Program-made: the position numbers and the translations under genes
Shown: positions 1,347-56,766 of the stretch, piece after piece
Layout: the number at the start of each line of letters is the position of its first letter
Position numbering within the stretch: position 1 is the first letter of the stretch
Source of the DNA: Escherichia coli
GTDB taxonomy: Bacteria; Pseudomonadota; Gammaproteobacteria; Enterobacterales; Enterobacteriaceae
Reading direction: 5' to 3' (one strand)
DNA length: 64,000 nucleotides
Assembly (NCBI RefSeq): GCF_044324875.1
Contig: NZ_CP172185.1
Notes under the pieces: model-generated
Database searches by the model: none
Seen by the model: the letters and a program-made list of their open reading frames with translations, nothing else
What the model was told of the DNA's origin: nothing

Positions 1347-4300
1347 TTACTCGTCTTCCAGTTCGATGTTGATACCCAGCGAACGAATCTCTTTCAACAA
1401 TACGTTGAAGGATTCTGGCATGCCCGGCTCCATCTGATGGTTGCCGTCCACGATGTTCTTATACATCTTGGTACGACCGTTCACGTCATCAGACTTAACG
1501 GTGAGCATTTCCTGCAGGGTGTATGCTGCGCCGTATGCTTCCAGCGCCCACACTTCCATCTCCCCGAAACGCTGACCACCGAACTGTGCCTTACCACCCA
1601 GCGGCTGCTGAGTAACCAGGCTGTAAGAACCGGTGGAACGCGCGTGCATCTTGTCGTCGACCAGGTGGTTCAGTTTCAGCATGTACATGTAACCAACGGT
1701 TACCGGACGTTCGAACTGTTCACCAGTGCGTCCGTCGTACAGGCGGATCTGACCAGAAGTCGGCAGGTCGCCAAGTTTCAGCAGCTCTTTAATTTCTGCT
1801 TCTTTCGCACCGTCGAACACCGGCGTTGCGATTGGCATACCTTTGCGCAGGTTTTCAGCCAGACGCATAACTTCTTCATCGCTGAAGGTACTCAGGTCAA
1901 CTTTCTGACGAACGTCAGCGCCCAGATCGTAAGCACGCTGGATGAATTCGCGCAGTTTCGCGACTTCTTGCTGCTGTTTCAGCATGGCGTTGATCTTGTC
2001 GCCGATACCTTTCGCAGCCATACCCAGGTGGGTTTCGAGGATCTGACCGATGTTCATACGAGACGGTACGCCCAGCGGGTTCAGTACGATGTCTACCGGC
2101 GTACCGTTTTCATCGTAAGGCATATCTTCGATCGGGTTGATCTTAGAAATTACACCCTTGTTACCGTGACGACCTGCCATCTTGTCACCAGGCTGGATAC
2201 GGCGTTTAACCGCCAGATATACCTTAACAATCTTCAGCACGCCCGGTGCCAGATCGTCGCCCTGGGTGATTTTGCGGCGTTTCGCTTCGAGTTTCTTCTC
2301 GAACTCGTGTTTCAGTTCGTCATACTGCTCAGCCAGCTGTTCCAGCTGATTTTGTTTCTCTTCGTCGGTCAGGCCCAGCTCCAGCCAGCGATCGCGCGGC
2401 AGTTTGTCGAGCTTCTCAGCTTCAACGCCACCGGCTACCAGCACAGCACGGATACGGCTGAACAGACCCGCTTCGAGGATCTGCAGTTCTTCAGACAGGT
2501 CTTTCTTCGCCTGTTTGAGCTGCATTTCTTCGATTTCCAGCGCACGTTTGTCTTTTTCTACGCCATCGCGAGTAAAGACCTGAACGTCGATAACCGTACC
2601 GGATACACCGTTTGGTACTCGCAGAGAAGAGTCTTTAACGTCAGACGCTTTCTCACCGAAGATCGCACGCAGCAGTTTTTCTTCTGGGGTCAGCTGGGTT
2701 TCACCTTTCGGCGTTACCTTACCAACCAGAATGTCGCCACCGGTTACTTCCGCACCAATGTAAACGATACCGGATTCATCCAGTTTGGAGAGCGCAGCTT
2801 CACCCACATTCGGGATGTCAGCGGTGATCTCTTCTGGCCCCAGCTTGGTGTCACGGGACACACACGCCAGTTCCTGAATGTGGATGGTGGTGAAACGGTC
2901 TTCCTGAACAACACGCTCGGATACGAGGATGGAGTCTTCGAAGTTGTAACCATTCCACGGCATGAACGCTACGCGCATGTTCTGACCAAGCGCCAGTTCA
3001 CCGAGGTCGGTGGACGGACCGTCTGCCAGCACGTCGCCACGTTCAACCGGTTCACCCAGAGACACACACGGCATCTGGTTAATACAGGTGTTCTGGTTAG
3101 AACGGGTGTATTTGGTCAGGTTGTAGATGTCGATACCTGCTTCACCCGGATACATCTCGTCTTCGTTAACTTTGATAACGATACGGGAAGCATCCACGTA
3201 CTGAACGACACCACCACGTTTAGCAACCGCAGTTACACCGGAGTCAACGGCAACAGCACGTTCCATACCAGTACCAACCAGCGGCTTATCAGCACGCAGA
3301 GTCGGAACGGCCTGACGTTGCATGTTCGCACCCATCAATGCACGGTTGGCGTCATCGTGTTCCAGGAACGGGATCAGGGACGCACCGACGGATACCACCT
3401 GCTGGGTGGATACGTCCATGTAGTCAACCTGGTCACGGCTGAACAAGCTGGATTCGCCTTTGCTACGGCAAGTTACCAGGTCTTCTACGAAGTGGCCTTC
3501 TTCATCCAGGTTGGAGTTCGCCTGGGCGATAACGTAGTTGCCTTCTTCGATAGCAGACAGGTAGTGAATTTCGTCAGTTACAACACCGTCGGTCACTTTA
3601 CGATACGGAGTCTCAAGGAAGCCGTATTCGTTAGTCTGTGCGTACACGGACAGAGAGTTGATCAGACCGATGTTCGGACCTTCAGGGGTTTCGATTGGAC
3701 ATACGCGACCGTAGTGAGTCGGGTGTACGTCTCGAACTTCGAAGCCTGCACGTTCACGGGTCAGACCACCCGGGCCGAGTGCGGAGATACGACGTTTGTG
3801 CGTAATTTCAGACAGCGGGTTGTTCTGGTCCATAAACTGAGACAGCTGGCTGGAACCGAAGAACTCTTTCACTGCTGCGGAAATCGGCTTAGCGTTGATC
3901 ATATCCTGAGGCATCAGGGTATCCAGATCGCCCAGAGACAGACGCTCTTTCACCGCACGCTCTACACGTACCAGGCCAACGCGGAACTGGTTTTCCGCCA
4001 TTTCGCCAACGGAACGGATACGACGGTTGCCGAGGTGGTCGATATCATCGACTTCGCCTTTACCGTTACGGATATCGATGAGCTTTTTCATAACATCAAT
4101 GATGTCGTCTTTGCTCAGGATACCGGAACCTTCGATTTCTTCGCGCAGCAGAGAACGGTTGAACTTCATACGACCAACCGCAGACAGGTCATAACGGTCT
4201 TCGGAGAAGAACAGGTTCTCGAACAGGCTTTCAGCTGCTTCACGAGTCGGCGGCTCGCCAGGGCGCATCATGCGGTAGATTTCTACCAGTGCGCTCAGAC

Positions 4301-7043: not shown

Positions 7044-8243
<1,200 letters not shown>

Positions 8244-8338
8244 TTACGGGCAAGGCCCATAAAAACAAAAGGCGCGAAATTGTATTCCAATCTCGCGCCT
8301 TGTGCAACGATTAAATCGCCGCTTTTTTGATCGCTGGG

Positions 8339-8884
8339 TTAGGCTTTTTCAACCTGGCTGAAGTCCAGCTCTACCGGGGTCGCACGACCGAAGATAGAAA
8401 CAGACACTTTCAGACGAGATTTCTCGTAATCCACTTCTTCAACAACACCGTTGAAGTCAGCGAACGGACCATCATTAACACGGACCATTTCACCCGGTTC
8501 AAACAGCGTTTTCGGACGCGGCTTATCACCAACCTGCTGCAGGCGGTTCATAATCGCATCGACTTCTTTATCGCTGATTGGTGCAGGACGATCGGAAGTA
8601 CCGCCGATGAAGCCCATCACACGCGGTACGCTGCGCACCAGGTGCCAGCTCGCGTCGTTCATCACCATCTGAACGAGGACGTAGCCAGGGAAGAATTTAC
8701 GTTCGCTTTTGCGACGCTGACCGCCACGGATTTCAACCACTTCTTCGGTTGGTACCATGACTTCACCAAACAAATCTTCCATGTTGTGTAATTTGATATG
8801 CTCACGCAGCGACGTTGCTACGCGGCCTTCAAAACCGGAAAACGCCTGAACGACGTACCAGCGCTTTTTAGGAGCTTCAGACAT
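8339..8884 (-). CDS. nusG: Transcription termination/antitermination factor NusG
   Basis: ORF translation [73 protein letters not shown]..., 181 aa. Confidence 0.97.
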
Positions 8885-8885
8885 C

Positions 8886-9269
8886 TCAGAACCTCAGGCC
8901 AGTGATAAAGGATACCAGGCGAACCAGAATACCATCCAGTCCCCACAGGATCAGTGACATTACTGCGGTAACCGCAGCCACAATCAGCGTGGTGTGCAAT
9001 GTTTCCTGGCGAGTCGGCCAAATGACCTTACGGACTTCGGTACGCGCTTCACGGGCAAAAGCAACGGTAGCTTTACCTTTTGTCGTTAACAGCGCGACAC
9101 CACCCGCTGCAGCAATCAGAATTACTACGGCCAGCGCACGCAGCGGCAGCATAATGTCGCGATAAAGATAGTTGCCGACAATCGCCACCAGGAGCAATGC
9201 CACCACAACGACCCACTTCATCGCTTCCAGGCCGCGCCCGCTTCCTTGAGCTTCGGTATTCGCACTCAT
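8886..9269 (-). CDS. secE: Preprotein translocase subunit SecE
   Basis: ORF translation [94 protein letters not shown]..., 127 aa. Confidence 0.97.
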
Positions 9270-9436
9270 AAACCAACCTGTCAGAAGTTTTCTACAAACA
9301 TTTTCACCCCGCGATCGCGAGGCAAACCAAATCGAAACGCGTATTAGCTTTTCGGATTATACGCCCTCAACAGAGCCTGTCTCAGCAATGATTATGACAA
9401 AGAAAATCACTGATGAGCCAGGTTCTGGTACGAAAG

Positions 9437-9470
9437 CGTGCAAAAAGGGCATCAAATGATGCCCTTTTAG
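9437..9470 (-). terminator. tufB intrinsic terminator
   Basis: Palindrome AAAGGGCATCATTTGATGCCCTTT followed by T-run on the - strand, directly after the tufB stop. Confidence 0.7.
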
Positions 9471-9498
9471 TGCGCATTGCGTCAAATGTTATCGGCAA

Positions 9499-10719
<1,221 letters not shown>

Positions 10720-10797
10720 TCACCACATCAACCAGGCAACATGCCCGACTTGTTGAATGCAATAAACAGAAGGAAAAAACAGGGAGGAGAAAAGAAG

Positions 10798-10873
10798 TGG
10801 TGCTGATAGGCAGATTCGAACTGCCGACCTCACCCTTACCAAGGGTGCGCTCTACCAACTGAGCTATATCAGC
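10798..10873 (-). tRNA. thrT: tRNA-Thr
   Basis: Reverse complement reads GCTGATATAGCTCAGTTGGTAGAGCGCACCCTTGGTAAGGGTGAGGTCGGCAGTTCGAATCTGCCTATCAGCACCA. Confidence 0.95.
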
Positions 10874-10879
10874 ACATCT

Positions 10880-10954
<75 letters not shown>

Positions 10955-11070
10955 ATCCTGGAACTCGGCTACCTGATTTTCATTCTGCACTGAATATCGA
11001 GAGAAGCTCTCTTTATTCGAGCCGGTAAGCGAACTTATCGTCTCGGGCTACGCCATCGCGTGGCCGAAAT

Positions 11071-11155
<85 letters not shown>

Positions 11156-11163
11156 GGACTTGA

Positions 11164-11239
<76 letters not shown>

Positions 11240-11600
11240 ATCAAGTAGCGCGCATTCTATGGAGACATGCGAGTTCATGCAACTAAAAAATTGCATAATT
11301 TGTTTTATTGGTCACATTTTATGCGACACGATGAAGAAACAGCCGAATGGAGGGCAGATTAGCACACTTTTTCAACATCATTGTGCTCAACAATGCGCTC
11401 CTGCTAAACCATAATTCTTTTTATCAGATGGAATATCTGTCACATTGCTTTTCAACGATAGCTTCCTGGGAGAGATTTTTTCTTATTATTCCTCCCCATC
11501 TGGTGTTACCCTCCTGCCCATTAACCCATTCAACAGAACTGTGACGCGCCATGGCAAATATCGCTTTGCCGATAGAGCTATGACCGCCAGAAACATGCTT

Positions 11601-12551
11601 ATGAGTATAAAAGAGCAAACGTTAATGACGCCTTACCTACAGTTTGACCGCAACCAGTGGGCAGCTCTGCGTGATTCCGTACCTATGACGTTATCGGAAG
11701 ATGAGATCGCCCGTCTCAAAGGTATTAATGAAGATCTCTCGTTAGAAGAAGTTGCCGAGATCTATTTACCTCTGTCACGTTTGCTGAACTTCTATATAAG
11801 CTCGAATCTGCGCCGTCAGGCAGTTCTGGAACAGTTTCTTGGTACCAACGGGCAACGCATTCCTTACATTATCAGTATTGCTGGTAGTGTCGCTGTGGGG
11901 AAAAGTACAACCGCCCGTGTATTGCAGGCGCTATTAAGCCGTTGGCCGGAACATCGTCGTGTTGAACTGATCACGACTGATGGCTTCCTTCACCCTAATC
12001 AGGTACTGAAAGAACGTGGTCTGATGAAGAAGAAAGGCTTCCCGGAATCGTATGATATGCATCGCCTGGTGAAGTTTGTTTCCGATCTCAAATCCGGCGT
12101 GCCAAACGTTACAGCACCTGTTTACTCGCATCTTATTTATGATGTGATCCCGGATGGAGATAAAACGGTTGTTCAGCCTGATATTTTAATTCTTGAAGGG
12201 TTAAATGTCTTACAGAGCGGGATGGATTATCCACACGATCCACATCATGTATTTGTTTCTGATTTTGTCGATTTTTCGATATATGTTGATGCATCGGAAG
12301 ACTTACTTCAGACGTGGTATATCAACCGTTTCCTGAAATTCCGCGAAGGGGCTTTTACAGACCCGGATTCCTATTTTCATAACTACGCGAAATTAACTAA
12401 AGAAGAAGCGATTAATACTGCCATGACGTTGTGGAAAGAGATCAACTGGCTGAACTTAAAGCAAAATATTCTACCTACTCGCGAGCGCGCCAGTTTAATC
12501 CTGACGAAAAGTGCTAATCATGCGGTAGAAGAGGTCAGGCTACGCAAATAA
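11601..12551 (+). CDS. coaA: Pantothenate kinase (type I)
   Basis: ORF 11445..12551 contains [41 protein letters not shown]... and Walker A motif GSVAVGKST; start placed at MSIKEQ (316 codons). Confidence 0.93.
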
Positions 12552-43598: not shown

Positions 43599-43906
43599 AA
43601 GCTGCTCCCGGGCTTGCAAAAGCCCATGTCCATATTTTTGATGGAGGAAACAATAGGCAATCGCAGGCGGAGCAAACAGTGGATAAAAAGGCCATTTACT
43701 GGACTTTTGTAATATCAGTACAAAAATGCGATCCGCCTCATAACTTGCGGCAACCCGGAAGCATGCCGCAAAACGGCGTCTTGTGAGACGCGTCGCAAAT
43801 TGACGGTTACATTACATTTGTCCAGCTTTTGGCAGATTTGTCACATGGCAGGCCGTTGCCGTGCGCTCTTATCCTGTAAACAGAAAACCGTACCGGGAGA
43901 GAGGCA

Positions 43907-52403: not shown

Positions 52404-52677
52404 TTATAATTGAATTAATCCACGGATGCGATAGTTGAGATCTTACATATTGTTGGTTAAAGAGATGTAGATCAAATTGATCGTAATTAAGCTTTTTTGA
52501 TTATGTCCGAATTCGGATAAATGCTTTATAAAAAAGGGTTTTAGCTTCATATCCTTCAAGTAATGAGGGAGAAAACAAGGCTGACAACCTTATTTTCCCG
52601 CCCTCATTTCGAGGCAGCATTTTGTGCTCTGTTTAAAATTTGTGATCACTGTGTGATTTTCACAAAAGCCACACTAT

Positions 52678-53650: not shown

Positions 53651-53863
53651 AAAAGCCGAGGGGCGTCAACCGAAAAATGACCAATGATGGTGAGGAAAAA
53701 TCAGGGAAGTTGAAAAAAACTCATCTTAATTAGAGGCGATAAAAGATTTCTCTATAGAGCAATCCACCTCGCACGTTTTGACTGATATTCTGACAACACA
53801 GCGACACCTGGGCTTATTCGAAAAACAACGTCCTGCCACCGGATGGTGATGCTAAGGCATCTG

Positions 53864-53893
53864 ATTCGGCCTGCGCCCTCGCGTAGGCCGAAT
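53864..53893. repeat. REP-like palindromic element
   Basis: ATTCGGCCT-N12-AGGCCGAAT perfect 9-bp inverted repeat with no adjacent T-run, lying between the metF promoter and the accessory insert. Confidence 0.4.
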
Positions 53894-53949
53894 ACTGGAT
53901 CTGCAAAATCAACTGGTAACAAACAGATGAATCAACTCAATACGTACTT

Positions 53950-55503
53950 TTACTTGATATCTTTCACGCGCATACCGTTGATCTGTTCATCCGTGATGGT
54001 GTTACCCGCTTTGAAGTAATCAACCACGGCGTGATAAACGTAATAACCGCCCGTTGTGTTACGCGCTTTCCCTTCGGTAAAGGCGGTAAAACCATCTCCA
54101 CCATCAGCAAGGAAACTCTGAGTAGCAATGTGGTAAATCGTCGCATCTTCAATGGGTTTGCCATTCAGAGTCAGTGTGATTACCCGCTGACCAACCGGTT
54201 TGCTGCTGTCGTACTTCATTTCCAGGCCTTTCGATACCTGTAAAACGCCATTACTTAAACTTGCGCCGTGTTCCATCAAACTGCGTAATTGTTTACCTGT
54301 GAGATCCATCGTCACCAGTTCATTGGGGAACGGGAAGGTACTGATGACGCCGCCCATCGTAATCGCCCCTGCGGGGATCTCATTGCGAATGCCGCCAGAG
54401 TTGGTTAACGCCAATTGGGTGTTTTTACCCGCCGCTACCAGTAAAGCATCAGCCGCCAGGTTCCCGAGGGAAGCCGATTCACCATAGGCACGTTTTAATT
54501 CAACCGGCGATTTCGCGACCGTTTGTTGCACCACTTCATCAAGCTTTTTATTCCAGCCGTCGATCACCTGTTTCGTTTGCGGATCGGGCTTCCACTCATC
54601 GGCGTAAATGGTTTTAAGCTCGAAGTTTTTCACCGTAAAATCATGCGGCTTCTCTTTGTAGTCGAGGACCAGTTTGCCCACATCAATCCCGCCGCTGTCA
54701 GTGGAGAGGATGAGCGTATTGCCGACTTTAATCGGTTCCGGCGTACCCACATGTGCATGTCCGGTGATCAAAATATCCAGCCCTTTCACCTGACTTGCCG
54801 TCTGAATATCTTTATCCAACGCGCGACGCACATCGGTCCCTCCCATACTGGACTGGCGGGCCGGAACACCTTCGTGGATCAGGGCGACGGTCAAATCAAC
54901 CTTGCCTTTGAGTTCATCGATATAACGTTGTAGCCATTTAATTTCATCACGCGCCTCAATACCCACTCGCGTTGCCGCAGATACCGTGTCATTAAAGGCA
55001 AATACACCGTGCAAACCTATAACGCCTATTTTCACACCGTCTTTTTCGATGATGGTATAGGGCTTATCCCAGAATGATTTACTGCTGTTCTGATAAAAAA
55101 CATTGCCCTGCACAATCGGGAATTTTGCCTGACTCAACTGTAATAATGTGTTGTCCCAGCCGTGGTCAAATTCATGGTTGCCTATCGTGACGGCATCAAA
55201 CGGCATAGTATTCATAATATCGATAATAGCCTTACCTTTGGTCAGGCTGCTGATATAGGGCCAGGTAAAATAGTCGCCCGCATCAAAAAACCATGTCGCT
55301 TTATTTTTTGCTTTTTCTTGCTTAACCAGCGTAGTGATATTTGCCCAGCCGCCAATATCCCGTTTACCGTCAGCGATCCACGGCACTTTATAAGGCTCGA
55401 CATGTGCATGGAGGTCGTTGGTATAAATGATGGTGACATCTTTAGCGCAAGCCCAGAATGGCAGTGTTAATGCGATACCCGCAGCAAGTATTTTAATTTT
55501 CAT
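53950..55503 (-). CDS. Secreted bifunctional metallophosphatase / 5'-nucleotidase (UshA/CpdB family); not present at this locus in K-12
   Basis: 517-aa ORF: N-terminal signal peptide [20 protein letters not shown]; metallophosphoesterase motifs DLHAH, GDYF, GNHEFD, GHAHV; C-terminal 5'-nucleotidase motifs [20 protein letters not shown]; good SD (AAAGGGA) upstream. Confidence 0.85.
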
Positions 55504-55559
55504 AAACAGTCCCTTTCAGTGAGATAAAGGATTGCTACATTACGTTCTGAAAGAGTTAT

Positions 55560-55581
55560 TTATGTGAGAGTAATCACATCC
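55560..55581. promoter_or_regulatory. Candidate cAMP-CRP binding site in the divergent promoter region of the two accessory genes
   Basis: TTATGTGAGAGTAATCACATCC: TGTGA-N6-TCACA half-sites at 55563..55578, about 65 bp from each start codon. Confidence 0.5.
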
Positions 55582-55635
55582 ACAGGGGAGCGTTGCCGGA
55601 CAAAATCAACGACCATGTGAAATCGTTGGTGATAT

Positions 55636-56766
55636 ATGTCGACTCTGTTTACGATTAATGCCTGCAAGTCGTTTGGTTGCCGTAATTTAGGGCAGCCAAC
55701 ATCGACAGATTATAGCTGGCCCGACTATCGACTGGGTTATCCGGCATTGCACTGTCGGGCATGTGGCAGTTACCCGCCGTTGTTTGACGAGCAACAATTT
55801 CGTGACTGGTTGACAGTTCACTTATCTACTTTTGCAACAGAGAAAGGCCATTTTTGCCCGGTATGTTATGGCACAGAGACGATTTGTTATGGTCACAATC
55901 CACAGGGTTCGCAACGCATTCAATGCCGTAACTGCAAAAAAGTATGGACACCCAAACAATATCAGAAAGAAATAACGCCTCCCGAAATAATCGAAACGGT
56001 TGCTTTTCTCGTGCCATTTCAGGGAGTCAGCAGCGGGCAGAAACTGTATGTTTTAATCAGTTTTGATGCTCTTCGCGGTAATATTCTTCATCTTTCTACT
56101 AATTACACGCAGCATCAGGCTGGAGAAAGTCTGCATTATCGATACAGAGGAAATGCAGAACCAGAGTTACACGACAATAATATTGTACAACGCGTTGATA
56201 TGCGCGAAGCACAATTTCTACGCCGCAGTCAGTTTGATGAAATTCAGTATGGCAGCGCAGCGCTCAAGCGCAATGCCAAAGGCATTATTCTGCGTCCGGT
56301 TATCACAGCGCACGGGCATTTTAGAGTACTGAATATTTTATTCCCTACAGTAAAAACACATGTAATTTCACACGAGTGTTTTTTAAGAGGTGCGATTATT
56401 ACGGCCTGGGCAGAACTGTTTCGCCAACAGCAAGGTGAGATTTGGTTTATTGAAGAGGAAATAGCTGACTATACCGATAATACGCCCTGGCGTTTTCAGG
56501 GAACAACTTATCACGGCTGGTGGAAAAATCAGTGGCAACTTTGGGGTCAGGGCAAAAATCGTAAAATGGTATGTGCATTAACAGGCGGAAATAACAGCAA
56601 AGCTGAAATGCTCTCTTTCGCAACCAGCAGACATTTTATCGACTGGCTACATAAACAAGCAGTATTTACTCACAGCACCCCGCTTTCCGCAGGGCGCGTT
56701 ACGCAAATACTGCTTTCTCTGGCTCAGGATTACAACAACTGCGCCAGCCGGTTGATATCCGACTGA
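55636..56766 (+). CDS. Cys-rich hypothetical protein with two N-terminal zinc-ribbon motifs (second resembles transposase-type IS1 InsA / IS1595 ribbon) and an unrecognised C-terminal domain; not present in K-12
   Basis: 376-aa ORF in AT-richer DNA; CKSFGC...HCRAC and CPVCYGTETICYGHNPQGSQRIQCRNCKKVW (compare IS1 InsA CPSC...GHQRYLCSHCRKTW); last ~12 codons overlap the metL 3' end on the opposite strand. Confidence 0.7.
   Translation: MSTLFTINACKSFGCRNLGQPTSTDYSWPDYRLGYPALHCRACGSYPPLFDEQQFRDWLTVHLSTFATEKGHFCPVCYGTETICYGHNPQGSQRIQCRNCKKVWTPKQYQKEITPPEIIETVAFLVPFQGVSSGQKLYVLISFDALRGNILHLSTNYTQHQAGESLHYRYRGNAEPELHDNNIVQRVDMREAQFLRRSQFDEIQYGSAALKRNAKGIILRPVITAHGHFRVLNILFPTVKTHVISHECFLRGAIITAWAELFRQQQGEIWFIEEEIADYTDNTPWRFQGTTYHGWWKNQWQLWGQGKNRKMVCALTGGNNSKAEMLSFATSRHFIDWLHKQAVFTHSTPLSAGRVTQILLSLAQDYNNCASRLISD

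What the first reader, a model, noticed from the sequence alone, without database searches (positions are those of the whole stretch)
55560..55581. Consensus-core CRP site centred in the divergent promoter of the accessory pair
TGTGA-gagtaa-TCACA (both half-sites perfect, 6-bp spacer) lies roughly equidistant, about 65 bp, from both start codons. That suggests cAMP-CRP control of one or both genes, which would fit nucleotide catabolism or scavenging under carbon limitation and would tie the horizontally acquired genes into the host global regulatory network.
Basis: partly seen in the sequence, partly recalled or inferred. Interest (0 to 1): 0.4.

Follow-up and report, generated by a model that had tools for sequence, protein, structure and literature searches.

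The report
Conserved CRP site between divergent nucleotidase genes
The palindrome is real and almost certainly a working binding site for the sugar-starvation regulator CRP, kept for a very long time between a periplasmic nucleotidase gene and its partner gene, which makes it an ordinary but well-supported new member of the CRP regulon.

Summary
TGTGAgagtaaTCACA lies at 55563-55578, 67.5 bp and 65.5 bp from the two start codons. It is the only perfect core in the 64 kb window.

A matrix built from 97 RegulonDB CRP sites scores it at 15.4 bits. That beats 79% of known sites and beats the SELEX-proven frwC/ptsA region in the same window.

The same palindrome sits at the same position in 26 of 27 orthologous intergenic regions from about 12 genera. 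Of the 27, 19 have a perfect core, and there are 17 different spacers. Synonymous sites in the nucleotidase gene are nearly saturated over the same distances.

Conserved -10-like hexamers flank the site at class II spacing on both sides, with no -35 element and no indels.

Remote homologues of the partner protein (21-30% identity) also lie next to nucleotide or nucleoside scavenging genes, behind strong CRP-like sites.

So cAMP-CRP control is well supported computationally but not experimentally. The "horizontally acquired" framing is weak, because the pair lies between metF and metL in at least 8 genera.

Two further invariant elements point to a second, unknown regulator. The partner protein has zinc ribbons and a transposase-like fold.

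The parts
55560..55581 (.). 22-bp CRP-type operator ttaTGTGAgagtaaTCACAtcc (core 55563-55578, centre 55570.5)
   Evidence: Sequence. It is the only perfect core in the window and scores 15.38 bits, the best in the window and above 79% of 97 known sites. Orthologous sites score 12-18.7 bits in 26 of 27 loci. The 5-6-5 conservation footprint ranks first of 116 possible positions.
55537..55542 (-). Candidate -10 hexamer TAATGT of the nucleotidase promoter. Its upstream edge is 28.5 bp from the CRP centre, which predicts a transcription start near 55530 and CRP at about -40.5.
   Evidence: T1, A2, A3 and T6 are invariant in 27 of 27 orthologous regions, and there are no indels between it and the CRP site. 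The distant paralogue L043 has AAAAAT at 29.5 bp. The start site itself is inferred, not mapped.
55601..55606 (+). Candidate -10 hexamer CAAAAT of the 376-aa gene's promoter. Its upstream edge is 30.5 bp from the CRP centre, which predicts a transcription start near 55613 and CRP at about -42.5.
   Evidence: Column counts are C 26/27, A 27/27, A 24/27, A 26/27, A 27/27 and T 27/27. The distant paralogue L043 has CAATAT at 29.5 bp. No sigma-70 promoter with a -35 element was found by the scan. The start site is inferred.
53950..55503 (-). Periplasmic metallophosphatase / 5'-nucleotidase (517 aa, N-terminal signal-peptide-like sequence)
   Evidence: Pfam Metallophos plus 5_nucleotid_C. The sequence is essentially the PDB entry 3IVD/3IVE 'Nucleotidase' (E = 0). 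It is 87-98% identical across genera.
55636..56766 (+). 376-aa 'cytoplasmic protein': two 4-Cys zinc ribbons of the IS1 InsA type plus an RNase H-like (transposase/integrase) core. It has no Pfam family and its function is unknown.
55540..55553 (.). Nearly invariant block TTACGTTCTGAAAG between the CRP site and the nucleotidase -10. It contains the palindrome TTCTGAA, and its CTGAAAG (55547-55553) is the inverted repeat of CTTTCAG at 55513-55519.
   Evidence: Alignment A3 columns 49-62. The repeat stays paired in 94.7% of cells, with no compensatory changes. Its function is unknown; it is a candidate operator for a second regulator.
55513..55519 (.). CTTTCAG, the partner of the inverted repeat. 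It overlaps the nucleotidase ribosome-binding region (minus strand CTGAAAGGGA).
55605..55630 (.). Inverted repeat ATCAACGA-N10-TCGTTGGT. Its 3' part, AAATCGTTGGT (55620-55630), is invariant in 27 of 27 loci. It spans the predicted -10/+1 to +18 of the plus-strand promoter.
   Evidence: 97.7% of cells paired; one-sided changes only. A related AAAATCTGTTGGG occurs in the distant paralogue L043, and GTTGG-like motifs occur before the start codon in remote homologues. It is not coding: an in-frame TGA lies at 55630-55632. There is no Rfam match.

Best explanation
The palindrome is a genuine cAMP-CRP operator that selection has maintained. When glucose is scarce and cAMP rises, a CRP dimer binds 55563-55578. 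It then recruits RNA polymerase to two weak back-to-back promoters that have -10 elements but no -35 elements.

One promoter reads leftward into the periplasmic 5'-nucleotidase gene (predicted start about 55530, CRP at about -40.5). The other reads rightward into the zinc-ribbon/transposase-fold gene (predicted start about 55613, CRP at about -42.5). This is class II activation from a single shared site, with the two transcription starts about 83 bp apart. Nucleotide scavenging is thereby placed under catabolite control.

Shown here: the site, its PWM strength, its conservation, the fixed spacing to conserved -10-like hexamers, and the recurrence of CRP-like sites at remote homologous loci.

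Inferred: that CRP binds, the positions of the transcription starts, the sign of regulation, and that both promoters respond. A second, pathway-specific regulator probably acts through the other invariant elements.
For: 1. Sequence strength. The core is perfect. By my count from the table, only 4 of the 97 RegulonDB sites I used have a perfect core. The PWM score is 15.38 bits against a median of 12.2 for known sites. It outranks the hits of 11.5-12.9 bits in the frwC<>ptsA intergenic region of the same window, which genomic SELEX lists as CRP-bound.

2. Phylogenetic footprint.
- In 27 distinct orthologous intergenic regions from about 12 genera, 19 have a perfect core, 6 have one mismatch and 2 have two. 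G5, G7 and the whole TCACA half-site are invariant, and there are 17 different spacers.
- Information content is 1.82 bits in the half-sites, 0.82 in the spacer and 1.36 over the whole intergenic region.
- Four-fold degenerate sites of the adjacent gene are only 0.35-0.51 identical to the window in other genera.

3. Geometry.
- There is no indel between alignment columns 46 and 139.
- The -10-like hexamers TAAnGT (minus strand) and CAAAAT (plus strand) are conserved, with upstream edges 28.5 and 30.5 bp from the centre.
- A distant paralogue (nucleotidase 74%, partner 36% identical) has AAAAAT and CAATAT, both at exactly 29.5 bp.
- Annotated class II CRP sites span -39.5 to -43.5.
- No -35 element was found.

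4. The S. arizonae deletion stops exactly at the edge of the CRP site and leaves the nucleotidase promoter intact.

5. Regulatory logic.
- E. coli S88-type islands add two nucleotidases and a Tsx-like channel behind a second CRP-like site of 15.95 bits.
- cpdB, tsx, nupC, nupG, cdd, udp and deo are known CRP targets.

6. Remote homologues of the partner protein. In all 7 loci where the upstream region was available, a site of at least 12 bits lies in the regulatory region, and it is usually the only such site in 3-9 kb.
Against: - I found no experimental evidence (EMSA, ChIP, reporter or TSS mapping) for this locus in the literature I could search.
- The -10 hexamers are weak (3/6 and 4/6 matches), and the start sites are only predicted.
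- The two spacings are 1 bp either side of the optimum.
- An alternative -10 (TGAAAT at 55618-55623) would put CRP near -59.5, a class I position, for the plus-strand gene.
- The intergenic region is conserved almost throughout, and two other blocks are as invariant as the CRP half-sites. Conservation alone therefore does not single out CRP.
- The G at the first spacer position is invariant, which the CRP matrix does not require.
- Two polymerases cannot use one class II activator at the same time, so joint activation would be competitive.
Confidence: 0.65

Rival explanations
1. CRP binds the site but controls only one of the two genes. The likeliest target is the nucleotidase, by class II activation. 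The plus-strand gene would then be CRP-independent, activated from a class I-like position, or even hindered by polymerase competition.
For: - In S. arizonae the site is kept although the partner gene's promoter and first 125 codons are deleted.
- An alternative -10 (nnAAAT, alignment columns 127-132) would place CRP at about -59.5 for the plus-strand gene.
- In L050 and L055 the strong site is positioned for the enzyme operon, not for the homologue.
Against: - CAAAAT at class II distance on the plus side is as conserved as the minus-side hexamer.
- The distant paralogue L043 keeps symmetric 29.5-bp spacing on both sides.
- In L047 and L053 the strong site lies 70-80 bp upstream of the homologue itself.
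Confidence: 0.22
2. The palindrome is the operator of a different protein that happens to resemble a CRP site. Candidates are the divergently encoded zinc-ribbon/transposase-fold protein or another CRP/FNR-family factor.
For: - The partner protein is transposase-derived, and such proteins bind inverted repeats.
- The first spacer base G is invariant, and many loci extend the palindrome to TGTGAG...CTCACA, which CRP does not require.
Against: - The conservation profile (positions 4-8 and 15-19 fixed, central 6 bp free) is the CRP logo.
- Sites in loci whose partner proteins are only 21-30% identical still match the E. coli CRP matrix at 12-18 bits. A co-evolving specific regulator would not be expected to keep that match.
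- TGTGAG...CTCAC also occurs in proven CRP sites such as mglB, tdc and dadA.
- G rather than T at half-site position 2 argues against FNR (own knowledge of the FNR consensus TTGAT-N4-ATCAA).
Confidence: 0.07
3. It is a chance palindrome with no regulatory role.
For: One perfect core per 64 kb arises in 11 of 100 shuffles.
Against: The palindrome is kept at a fixed position in 26 of 27 loci from about 12 genera with 17 different spacers, while synonymous sites are near saturation. It also recurs in remote homologous loci.
Confidence: 0.01

Closest known systems
E. coli malX-malI intergenic region (one CRP site shared by two divergent class II promoters)
   Same: A single CRP site serves both directions from class II positions. 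RegulonDB lists the same site at -41.5 for malXY and -43.5 for malI. Here the predicted positions are -40.5 and -42.5, with starts about 83 bp apart. Activation of divergent promoters by one CRP dimer is established (El-Robh and Busby 2002, as cited in PMC3105977).
   Different: For mal the transcription starts and CRP dependence were shown experimentally (Lloyd et al. 2008; from memory, paper not held). Here both are inferred. The genes are unrelated. Here the whole arrangement is conserved across genera and is accompanied by two further invariant elements.
CRP/CytR-controlled nucleoside catabolism and uptake promoters (tsx, nupG, nupC, cdd, udp, deo)
   Same: The physiological theme is the same: nucleoside and nucleotide scavenging under cAMP-CRP control. 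A Tsx paralogue belongs to the longer form of the island.
   Different: - Those promoters typically have two CRP sites flanking a CytR operator (TGCAA-N2-3-TTGCA).
- Here there is a single CRP site. The second TGTGA at 55617 scores -12.9 bits.
- There is no TGCAA in the region.
- The weak GTTGCA at alignment columns 101-106 is not conserved.
CRP modulation of periplasmic nucleotide phosphoesterase genes cpdB and aphA in K-12
   Same: The enzyme class is the same (periplasmic nucleotide-phosphate hydrolases), and these genes are CRP targets. cpdB is a known and SELEX-confirmed target, and yjbS<>aphA is a SELEX-predicted one.
   Different: The genes and promoters are different. The nucleotidase here is a distinct UshA/YfkN-like paralogue that K-12 lacks.
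IS1 InsA / IS1595-type transposases (relevant to the partner protein only)
   Same: It has an N-terminal 4-Cys zinc ribbon of the InsA type and an RNase H-like transposase/integrase core fold.
   Different: - There is no Pfam transposase domain.
- The conserved residues are D/E144, H228, H246 and E/D247 rather than a canonical DDE triad.
- No terminal inverted repeats flank the island.
- There is one copy per genome.
- It has stable synteny next to nucleotide-scavenging genes.

Membership tests
cAMP-CRP binding site | 22-bp two-fold symmetric site with a TGTGA-N6-TCACA core | tested here: met
   Both half-sites are perfect with a 6-bp spacer.
cAMP-CRP binding site | Matrix score within the range of experimentally listed sites | tested here: met
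   The score is 15.38 bits. The known-site median is 12.2 and the 75th percentile is 14.8. It is the best score in the window.
cAMP-CRP binding site | Orthologous sites conserved in the half-sites but not in the spacer | tested here: met
   25 of 27 loci have at most 1 core mismatch, with 17 different spacers. Half-sites carry 1.82 bits and the spacer 0.82 bits.
cAMP-CRP binding site | cAMP-dependent binding of CRP in vitro or in vivo | not testable with these tools
   No EMSA, footprint or ChIP data for this locus were found.
cAMP-CRP binding site | Expression changes in crp/cya mutants or with glucose | not testable with these tools
   No expression data were available.
Class II CRP-dependent promoter | Site centred near -41.5, overlapping the -35 region | tested here: inconclusive
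   Spacing to the conserved -10-like hexamers gives -40.5 (minus strand) and -42.5 (plus strand), and exactly -41.5 on both sides in paralogue L043. The transcription starts are not mapped.
Class II CRP-dependent promoter | A -10 element is present and the -35 element is absent or poor | tested here: met
   TAAnGT and CAAAAT are conserved. The scan found no sigma-70 promoter with both hexamers that could serve either gene.
CytR/CRP nucleoside-regulon promoter | Two CRP sites flanking a CytR operator | tested here: not met
   There is only one site above 7 bits in the intergenic region. The second TGTGA scores -12.9 bits.
CytR/CRP nucleoside-regulon promoter | CytR operator TGCAA-N2-3-TTGCA or octamer repeats | tested here: not met
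   There is no TGCAA in 55504-55635. The GTTGCA-like stretch is poorly conserved. The motif definition comes from PMC3454398.
Active IS1/IS1595-type insertion sequence (partner gene) | Terminal inverted repeats, multiple copies, and a DDE triad | tested here: not met
   No flanking inverted repeats, one place per genome, and a non-canonical set of conserved residues. Only the fold and the zinc ribbon are shared.

The most novel reading that the evidence does not exclude
The CRP site may be one input of an ancient two-input switch found across Gammaproteobacteria. In this reading the divergently (sometimes co-directionally) encoded protein is the pathway-specific regulator or sensor of nucleotide and nucleoside scavenging operons. 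That protein is a domesticated IS1/IS1595-like transposase with two zinc ribbons, an RNase H-like core and no described family. It would bind the invariant inverted repeats that overlap both core promoters (55513-55553 and 55605-55630), while a single CRP dimer acts as a class II activator for both back-to-back promoters.
Probability: 0.25. Interest if true: 0.6.

Novelty: new member of a known kind. Interest (0 to 1): 0.35.

Why it matters
It adds a well-supported CRP target that K-12-based regulon maps cannot contain. The locus is a periplasmic nucleotidase gene, present in about a third of E. coli genomes (including ExPEC lineages such as S88) and in many other Enterobacteriaceae. It places extracellular nucleotide scavenging under catabolite control.

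The architecture is one site at class II distance from two back-to-back promoters, frozen for the whole divergence of the family. This is a clean natural example of bidirectional activation and would be easy to test.

The more interesting by-product is the partner gene. It belongs to an undescribed zinc-ribbon/transposase-fold family that recurs next to nucleotidase, nucleoside-transporter, phosphorylase and phosphatase genes behind CRP-like sites. This suggests a new kind of regulator or accessory factor for nucleotide salvage.

Tried and rejected
- **Spot 42 pairing.** I tested pairing with the conserved CUGAAAGGGA ribosome-binding region and with the plus-strand leader. The duplex energies are not better than shuffles (31% and 7% of shuffles are as good), so I dropped it.
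- **Known RNA families.** An Rfam scan of 55350-55800 gave only noise (E above 6).
- **RNA hairpins.** Both inverted repeats stay paired (96% of cells), but there are no compensatory changes and folding energies are unremarkable (z = 0.3 to -1.3). RNA structure can be neither shown nor excluded.
- **CytR or DeoR co-regulation.** There is no second CRP site, no TGCAA/TTGCA pair, and no DeoR-like palindrome on inspection.
- **Upstream extension of the 376-aa ORF.** I asked whether this could explain the invariant block. It cannot, because an in-frame TGA lies at 55630-55632.
- **The island as an intact transposon.** There are no terminal inverted repeats.
- **First structure prediction.** The model built from 18 close homologues was unusable (pLDDT 43). 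It succeeded only after remote homologues were added.
- **Literature searches.** I searched for yfkN, nucleotidase plus crp mutant, metL/metF/Tsx, and the CFT073 locus tags c4894-c4898. Only a 2026 genome paper turned up. It describes the metL..metF region as three UshA-like genes plus a Tsx-like gene and does not mention regulation.
- **Promoter scan.** The only promoter-like hit (55519..55490, minus strand) has its -10 inside the ORF and cannot serve the gene.

Full report
**What is there**

The window is an E. coli chromosome segment with the order katG - metF - [two genes] - metL - metB. Two divergent genes lie between metF and metL.
- A 517-aa metallophosphatase/5'-nucleotidase (53950-55503, minus strand) has a signal-peptide-like N-terminus. 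It matches Pfam Metallophos and 5_nucleotid_C and is essentially identical to PDB 3IVD/3IVE 'Nucleotidase'.
- A 376-aa 'cytoplasmic protein' (55636-56766, plus strand) shows only weak IS1-type zinc-ribbon matches.

NCBI's annotation of a 99.9% identical genome uses the same start codons.

The 132-bp spacer contains ttaTGTGAgagtaaTCACAtcc at 55560-55581. Its centre is at 55570.5, which is 67.5 bp and 65.5 bp from the two start codons.

**Is it more than chance?**

On the window count alone it is only weakly unusual. It is the one perfect core in 64 kb, against 0.11 expected, and 11 of 100 shuffles have at least one.

I built a symmetrised 22-bp matrix from 97 RegulonDB CRP sites printed in Table S4 of Shimada et al. 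2011 (PMC3105977). The matrix returns the textbook consensus AAATGTGATCTAGATCACATTT.
- The site scores 15.38 bits, against a known-site median of 12.2. That is higher than 79% of known sites.
- It is the best of 63,979 positions in the window, and one of only 6 at or above 12 bits.
- As a positive control, three of the other top hits (11.5-12.9 bits, 43634-43800) fall in the frwC<>ptsA divergent region. Genomic SELEX lists that region as CRP-bound.
- The other TGTGA in the spacer (55617) is not a site; it scores -12.9 bits.

**Comparative evidence**

The two-gene unit is present in 1,837-1,841 of 5,426 complete E. coli genomes, always in one copy. K-12 has 197 bp with a REP-like element in its place. 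Within E. coli the spacer is 97% conserved, so it is uninformative.

A scan of one genome per species with an alignment of the 376-aa protein gave 36 loci in Escherichia, Pseudocitrobacter, Citrobacter, Klebsiella, Enterobacter, Kosakonia, Phytobacter, Kluyvera, Pluralibacter, Silvania, Superficieibacter, Rahnella and Salmonella arizonae. All of them keep the divergent nucleotidase.

In 27 distinct spacers aligned without any gap between columns 46 and 139, the results are:
- The CRP core is perfect in 19, has one mismatch in 6 and has two in 2.
- G5, G7 and the whole right half-site are invariant, while the central six bases take 17 different forms.
- Information content is 1.82 bits in the half-sites, 0.82 in the spacer and 1.36 over the whole region.
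- The 5-6-5 footprint shape ranks first of 116 possible positions, exactly at the core.
- Orthologous sites score 12-18.7 bits in 26 of 27 loci.

Over the same evolutionary distances, four-fold degenerate sites of the nucleotidase gene are only 35-51% identical to the window. The site is therefore under purifying selection, and the pattern of constraint is the CRP logo.

**Which promoters?**

No sigma-70 promoter with both hexamers was found that could serve either gene, as expected for activator-dependent promoters. Two -10-like hexamers are conserved.
- TAAnGT on the minus strand (55542..55537) has T1, A2, A3 and T6 in 27 of 27 loci.
- CAAAAT on the plus strand (55601-55606) has A2, A5 and T6 in 27 of 27 loci.

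Their upstream edges lie 28.5 and 30.5 bp from the CRP centre. This gives CRP at about -40.5 and -42.5, with predicted starts near 55530 and 55613, 83 bp apart. Annotated class II CRP sites range from -39.5 to -43.5.

Two independent observations support this reading.
- In a distant paralogous locus (L043; nucleotidase 74%, partner 36% identical), a TGTGAaccctcTCACG site has AAAAAT and CAATAT at exactly 29.5 bp on the two sides.
- In S. arizonae a deletion removed the partner gene's promoter and first 125 codons. It ends precisely at the edge of the CRP site and leaves the nucleotidase promoter blocks intact.

The closest known architecture is malX-malI, where RegulonDB lists one CRP site at -41.5 and -43.5 for the two divergent promoters. 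Shimada et al. list 11 K-12 gene pairs controlled from a single CRP site and cite El-Robh and Busby 2002 for the principle.

**Physiological fit**

In E. coli S88 and related strains the plus-strand gene is followed by two more nucleotidase genes and a Tsx-like nucleoside channel gene. A 2026 genome paper describes the three UshA-like genes and the Tsx-like gene of this metL..metF region as a probable nucleoside processing and uptake system. It does not mention regulation.

Upstream of that downstream operon there is a second CRP-like site of 15.95 bits (L045:7438-7459). It is conserved among the strains that have the operon.

Known CRP targets include cpdB, tsx, nupC, nupG, cdd, udp and deo. 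Unlike the CytR-controlled members of that set, this spacer has a single CRP site and no CytR operator.

**Was it horizontally acquired?**

The unit has a somewhat lower G+C content than its neighbours: 45-48% against 52-59%. It is also variably present within E. coli.

Against recent acquisition:
- It occupies the same metF-metL interval in Citrobacter, Klebsiella, Kosakonia, Phytobacter, Pseudocitrobacter, Superficieibacter, Kluyvera and S. arizonae.
- Its synonymous divergence rises with that of the adjacent metL gene.
- A second, paralogous copy exists elsewhere in some genomes, for example next to kdsA in one E. coli strain.

The CRP site is therefore as old as the unit and was not recruited after a recent transfer. 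Absence from K-12 looks like loss or replacement.

**What CRP does not explain**

Two other elements are as invariant as the CRP half-sites.
- TTACGTTCTGAAAG (55540-55553) lies between the CRP site and the nucleotidase -10. It forms an inverted repeat with CTTTCAG at the ribosome-binding site (55513-55519).
- ATCAACGA-N10-TCGTTGGT (55605-55630) spans the predicted plus-strand -10/+1 to +18. Its 3' part, AAATCGTTGGT, is identical in all 27 loci.

These elements are not coding, match no Rfam family, show no compensatory changes, and do not pair significantly with Spot 42. Their positions over both core promoters suggest operators of a second, specific regulator.

**The partner protein**

With remote homologues added, AlphaFold gave a confident model (pLDDT 94.7).
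- The N-terminus has two 4-Cys zinc ribbons. Ten of 55 family members hit Pfam Zn_ribbon_InsA.
- The family-conserved residues are D/E144, R197, H228, H246 and E/D247, not a canonical DDE triad.
- No terminal repeats flank the island.

Remote homologues (21-30% identical) lie next to the following genes:
- a NupC-type transporter plus a nucleoside phosphorylase;
- a Metalloenzyme-family gene (possibly phosphopentomutase-like) plus a phosphorylase and a gene matching Nuc_H_symport/LacY-type symporter families;
- 5'-nucleotidases (three loci);
- a porin plus a class B acid phosphatase and a class II phosphodiesterase;
- a Tsx-like channel plus a sulfatase/phosphodiesterase-family gene.

In all 7 loci where the upstream region is available, a CRP-like site of 12-18 bits sits in the regulatory region. 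It is usually the only such site in the whole 3-9 kb locus. This generalises the CRP link. It also marks the protein family as a candidate transposase-derived regulator or accessory factor of nucleotide scavenging. That is a lead and not a demonstrated function.

**Verdict**

CRP control is strongly supported by sequence and comparative evidence but is not shown experimentally. The most likely mechanism is class II activation of both back-to-back promoters from one site.

My estimates are:
- about 0.9 that CRP binds;
- about 0.75 that it activates the nucleotidase gene;
- about 0.5 that it activates both genes.

The site is a new member of a very well known kind, so interest in the finding itself is modest. 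The partner protein family and the unexplained invariant elements are the parts worth following up.

Noticed in passing
window 55636-56766; loci L047-L055: The 376-aa 'cytoplasmic protein' belongs to an undescribed family with two InsA-type zinc ribbons and an RNase H-like transposase/integrase fold. Remote members recur next to nucleotidase, nucleoside transporter, nucleoside phosphorylase, acid phosphatase/phosphodiesterase and Tsx-like genes, behind strong CRP-like sites.
   Followed up: partly
window 55540-55553, 55513-55519 and 55605-55630: Two inverted-repeat elements are as invariant across about 12 genera as the CRP half-sites: TTACGTTCTGAAAG with CTTTCAG, and ATCAACGA-N10-TCGTTGGT with an invariant AAATCGTTGGT. 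They overlap both predicted core promoters. There is no Rfam match and no covariation, and the regulator is unknown.
   Followed up: partly
L045 (E. coli S88) 7554-11701; site at L045:7438-7459: Some E. coli strains (S88 and the similar CRE287, A25 and MINF_1A loci) carry a longer island in which the partner gene is followed by further nucleotidase genes. In S88 these are two nucleotidase genes and a Tsx-like channel gene. A second CRP-like site of 15.95 bits (ATTTGTTACTAAGATCACACAA) lies about 105 bp upstream of the first of them.
   Followed up: partly
L042 (Salmonella enterica subsp. arizonae) 3921-4010: A deletion removed the partner gene's promoter and first 125 codons. It ends exactly at the edge of the CRP site, and the nucleotidase promoter region is intact.
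   Followed up: yes
L014-L019, L036-L040 (e.g. L018, E. coli SCPM-O-B-8794): A second, paralogous copy of the nucleotidase/partner unit lies outside the metF-metL interval, and at least five copies have an extra nucleotidase gene downstream. In L018 it lies next to kdsA-like, sirB1-like, prmC and prfA genes, as judged from Pfam domains. These copies keep the CRP-like site, often as TGCGA or TGTGC in the left half.
   Followed up: partly
window 53719-56728 versus K-12 (L008 520-716): K-12 has 197 bp containing a REP-like element in place of the 3,010-bp unit. In the window, the 3' end of the partner gene overlaps the 3' end of metL by 37 bp (56730-56766).
   Followed up: partly
window 43634-43800: Three CRP-matrix hits (11.5-12.9 bits) lie in the frwC<>ptsA divergent region, which genomic SELEX reported as CRP-bound. 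I used them as a positive control.
   Followed up: yes
window 11298-11319; 52458-52479 and 52620-52641: Other high CRP-matrix scores: 14.4 bits between the tRNA genes and coaA, and 12.8 and 13.9 bits in the AT-rich spacer between katG and metF, upstream of katG.
   Followed up: no
window 53950-55503: The nucleotidase already has a solved structure: PDB 3IVD/3IVE, named only 'Nucleotidase', matching residues 19-517 at E = 0. From memory this is the CFT073 protein c4898, crystallised with uridine and cytidine. A search for that locus tag found no relevant paper.
   Followed up: partly
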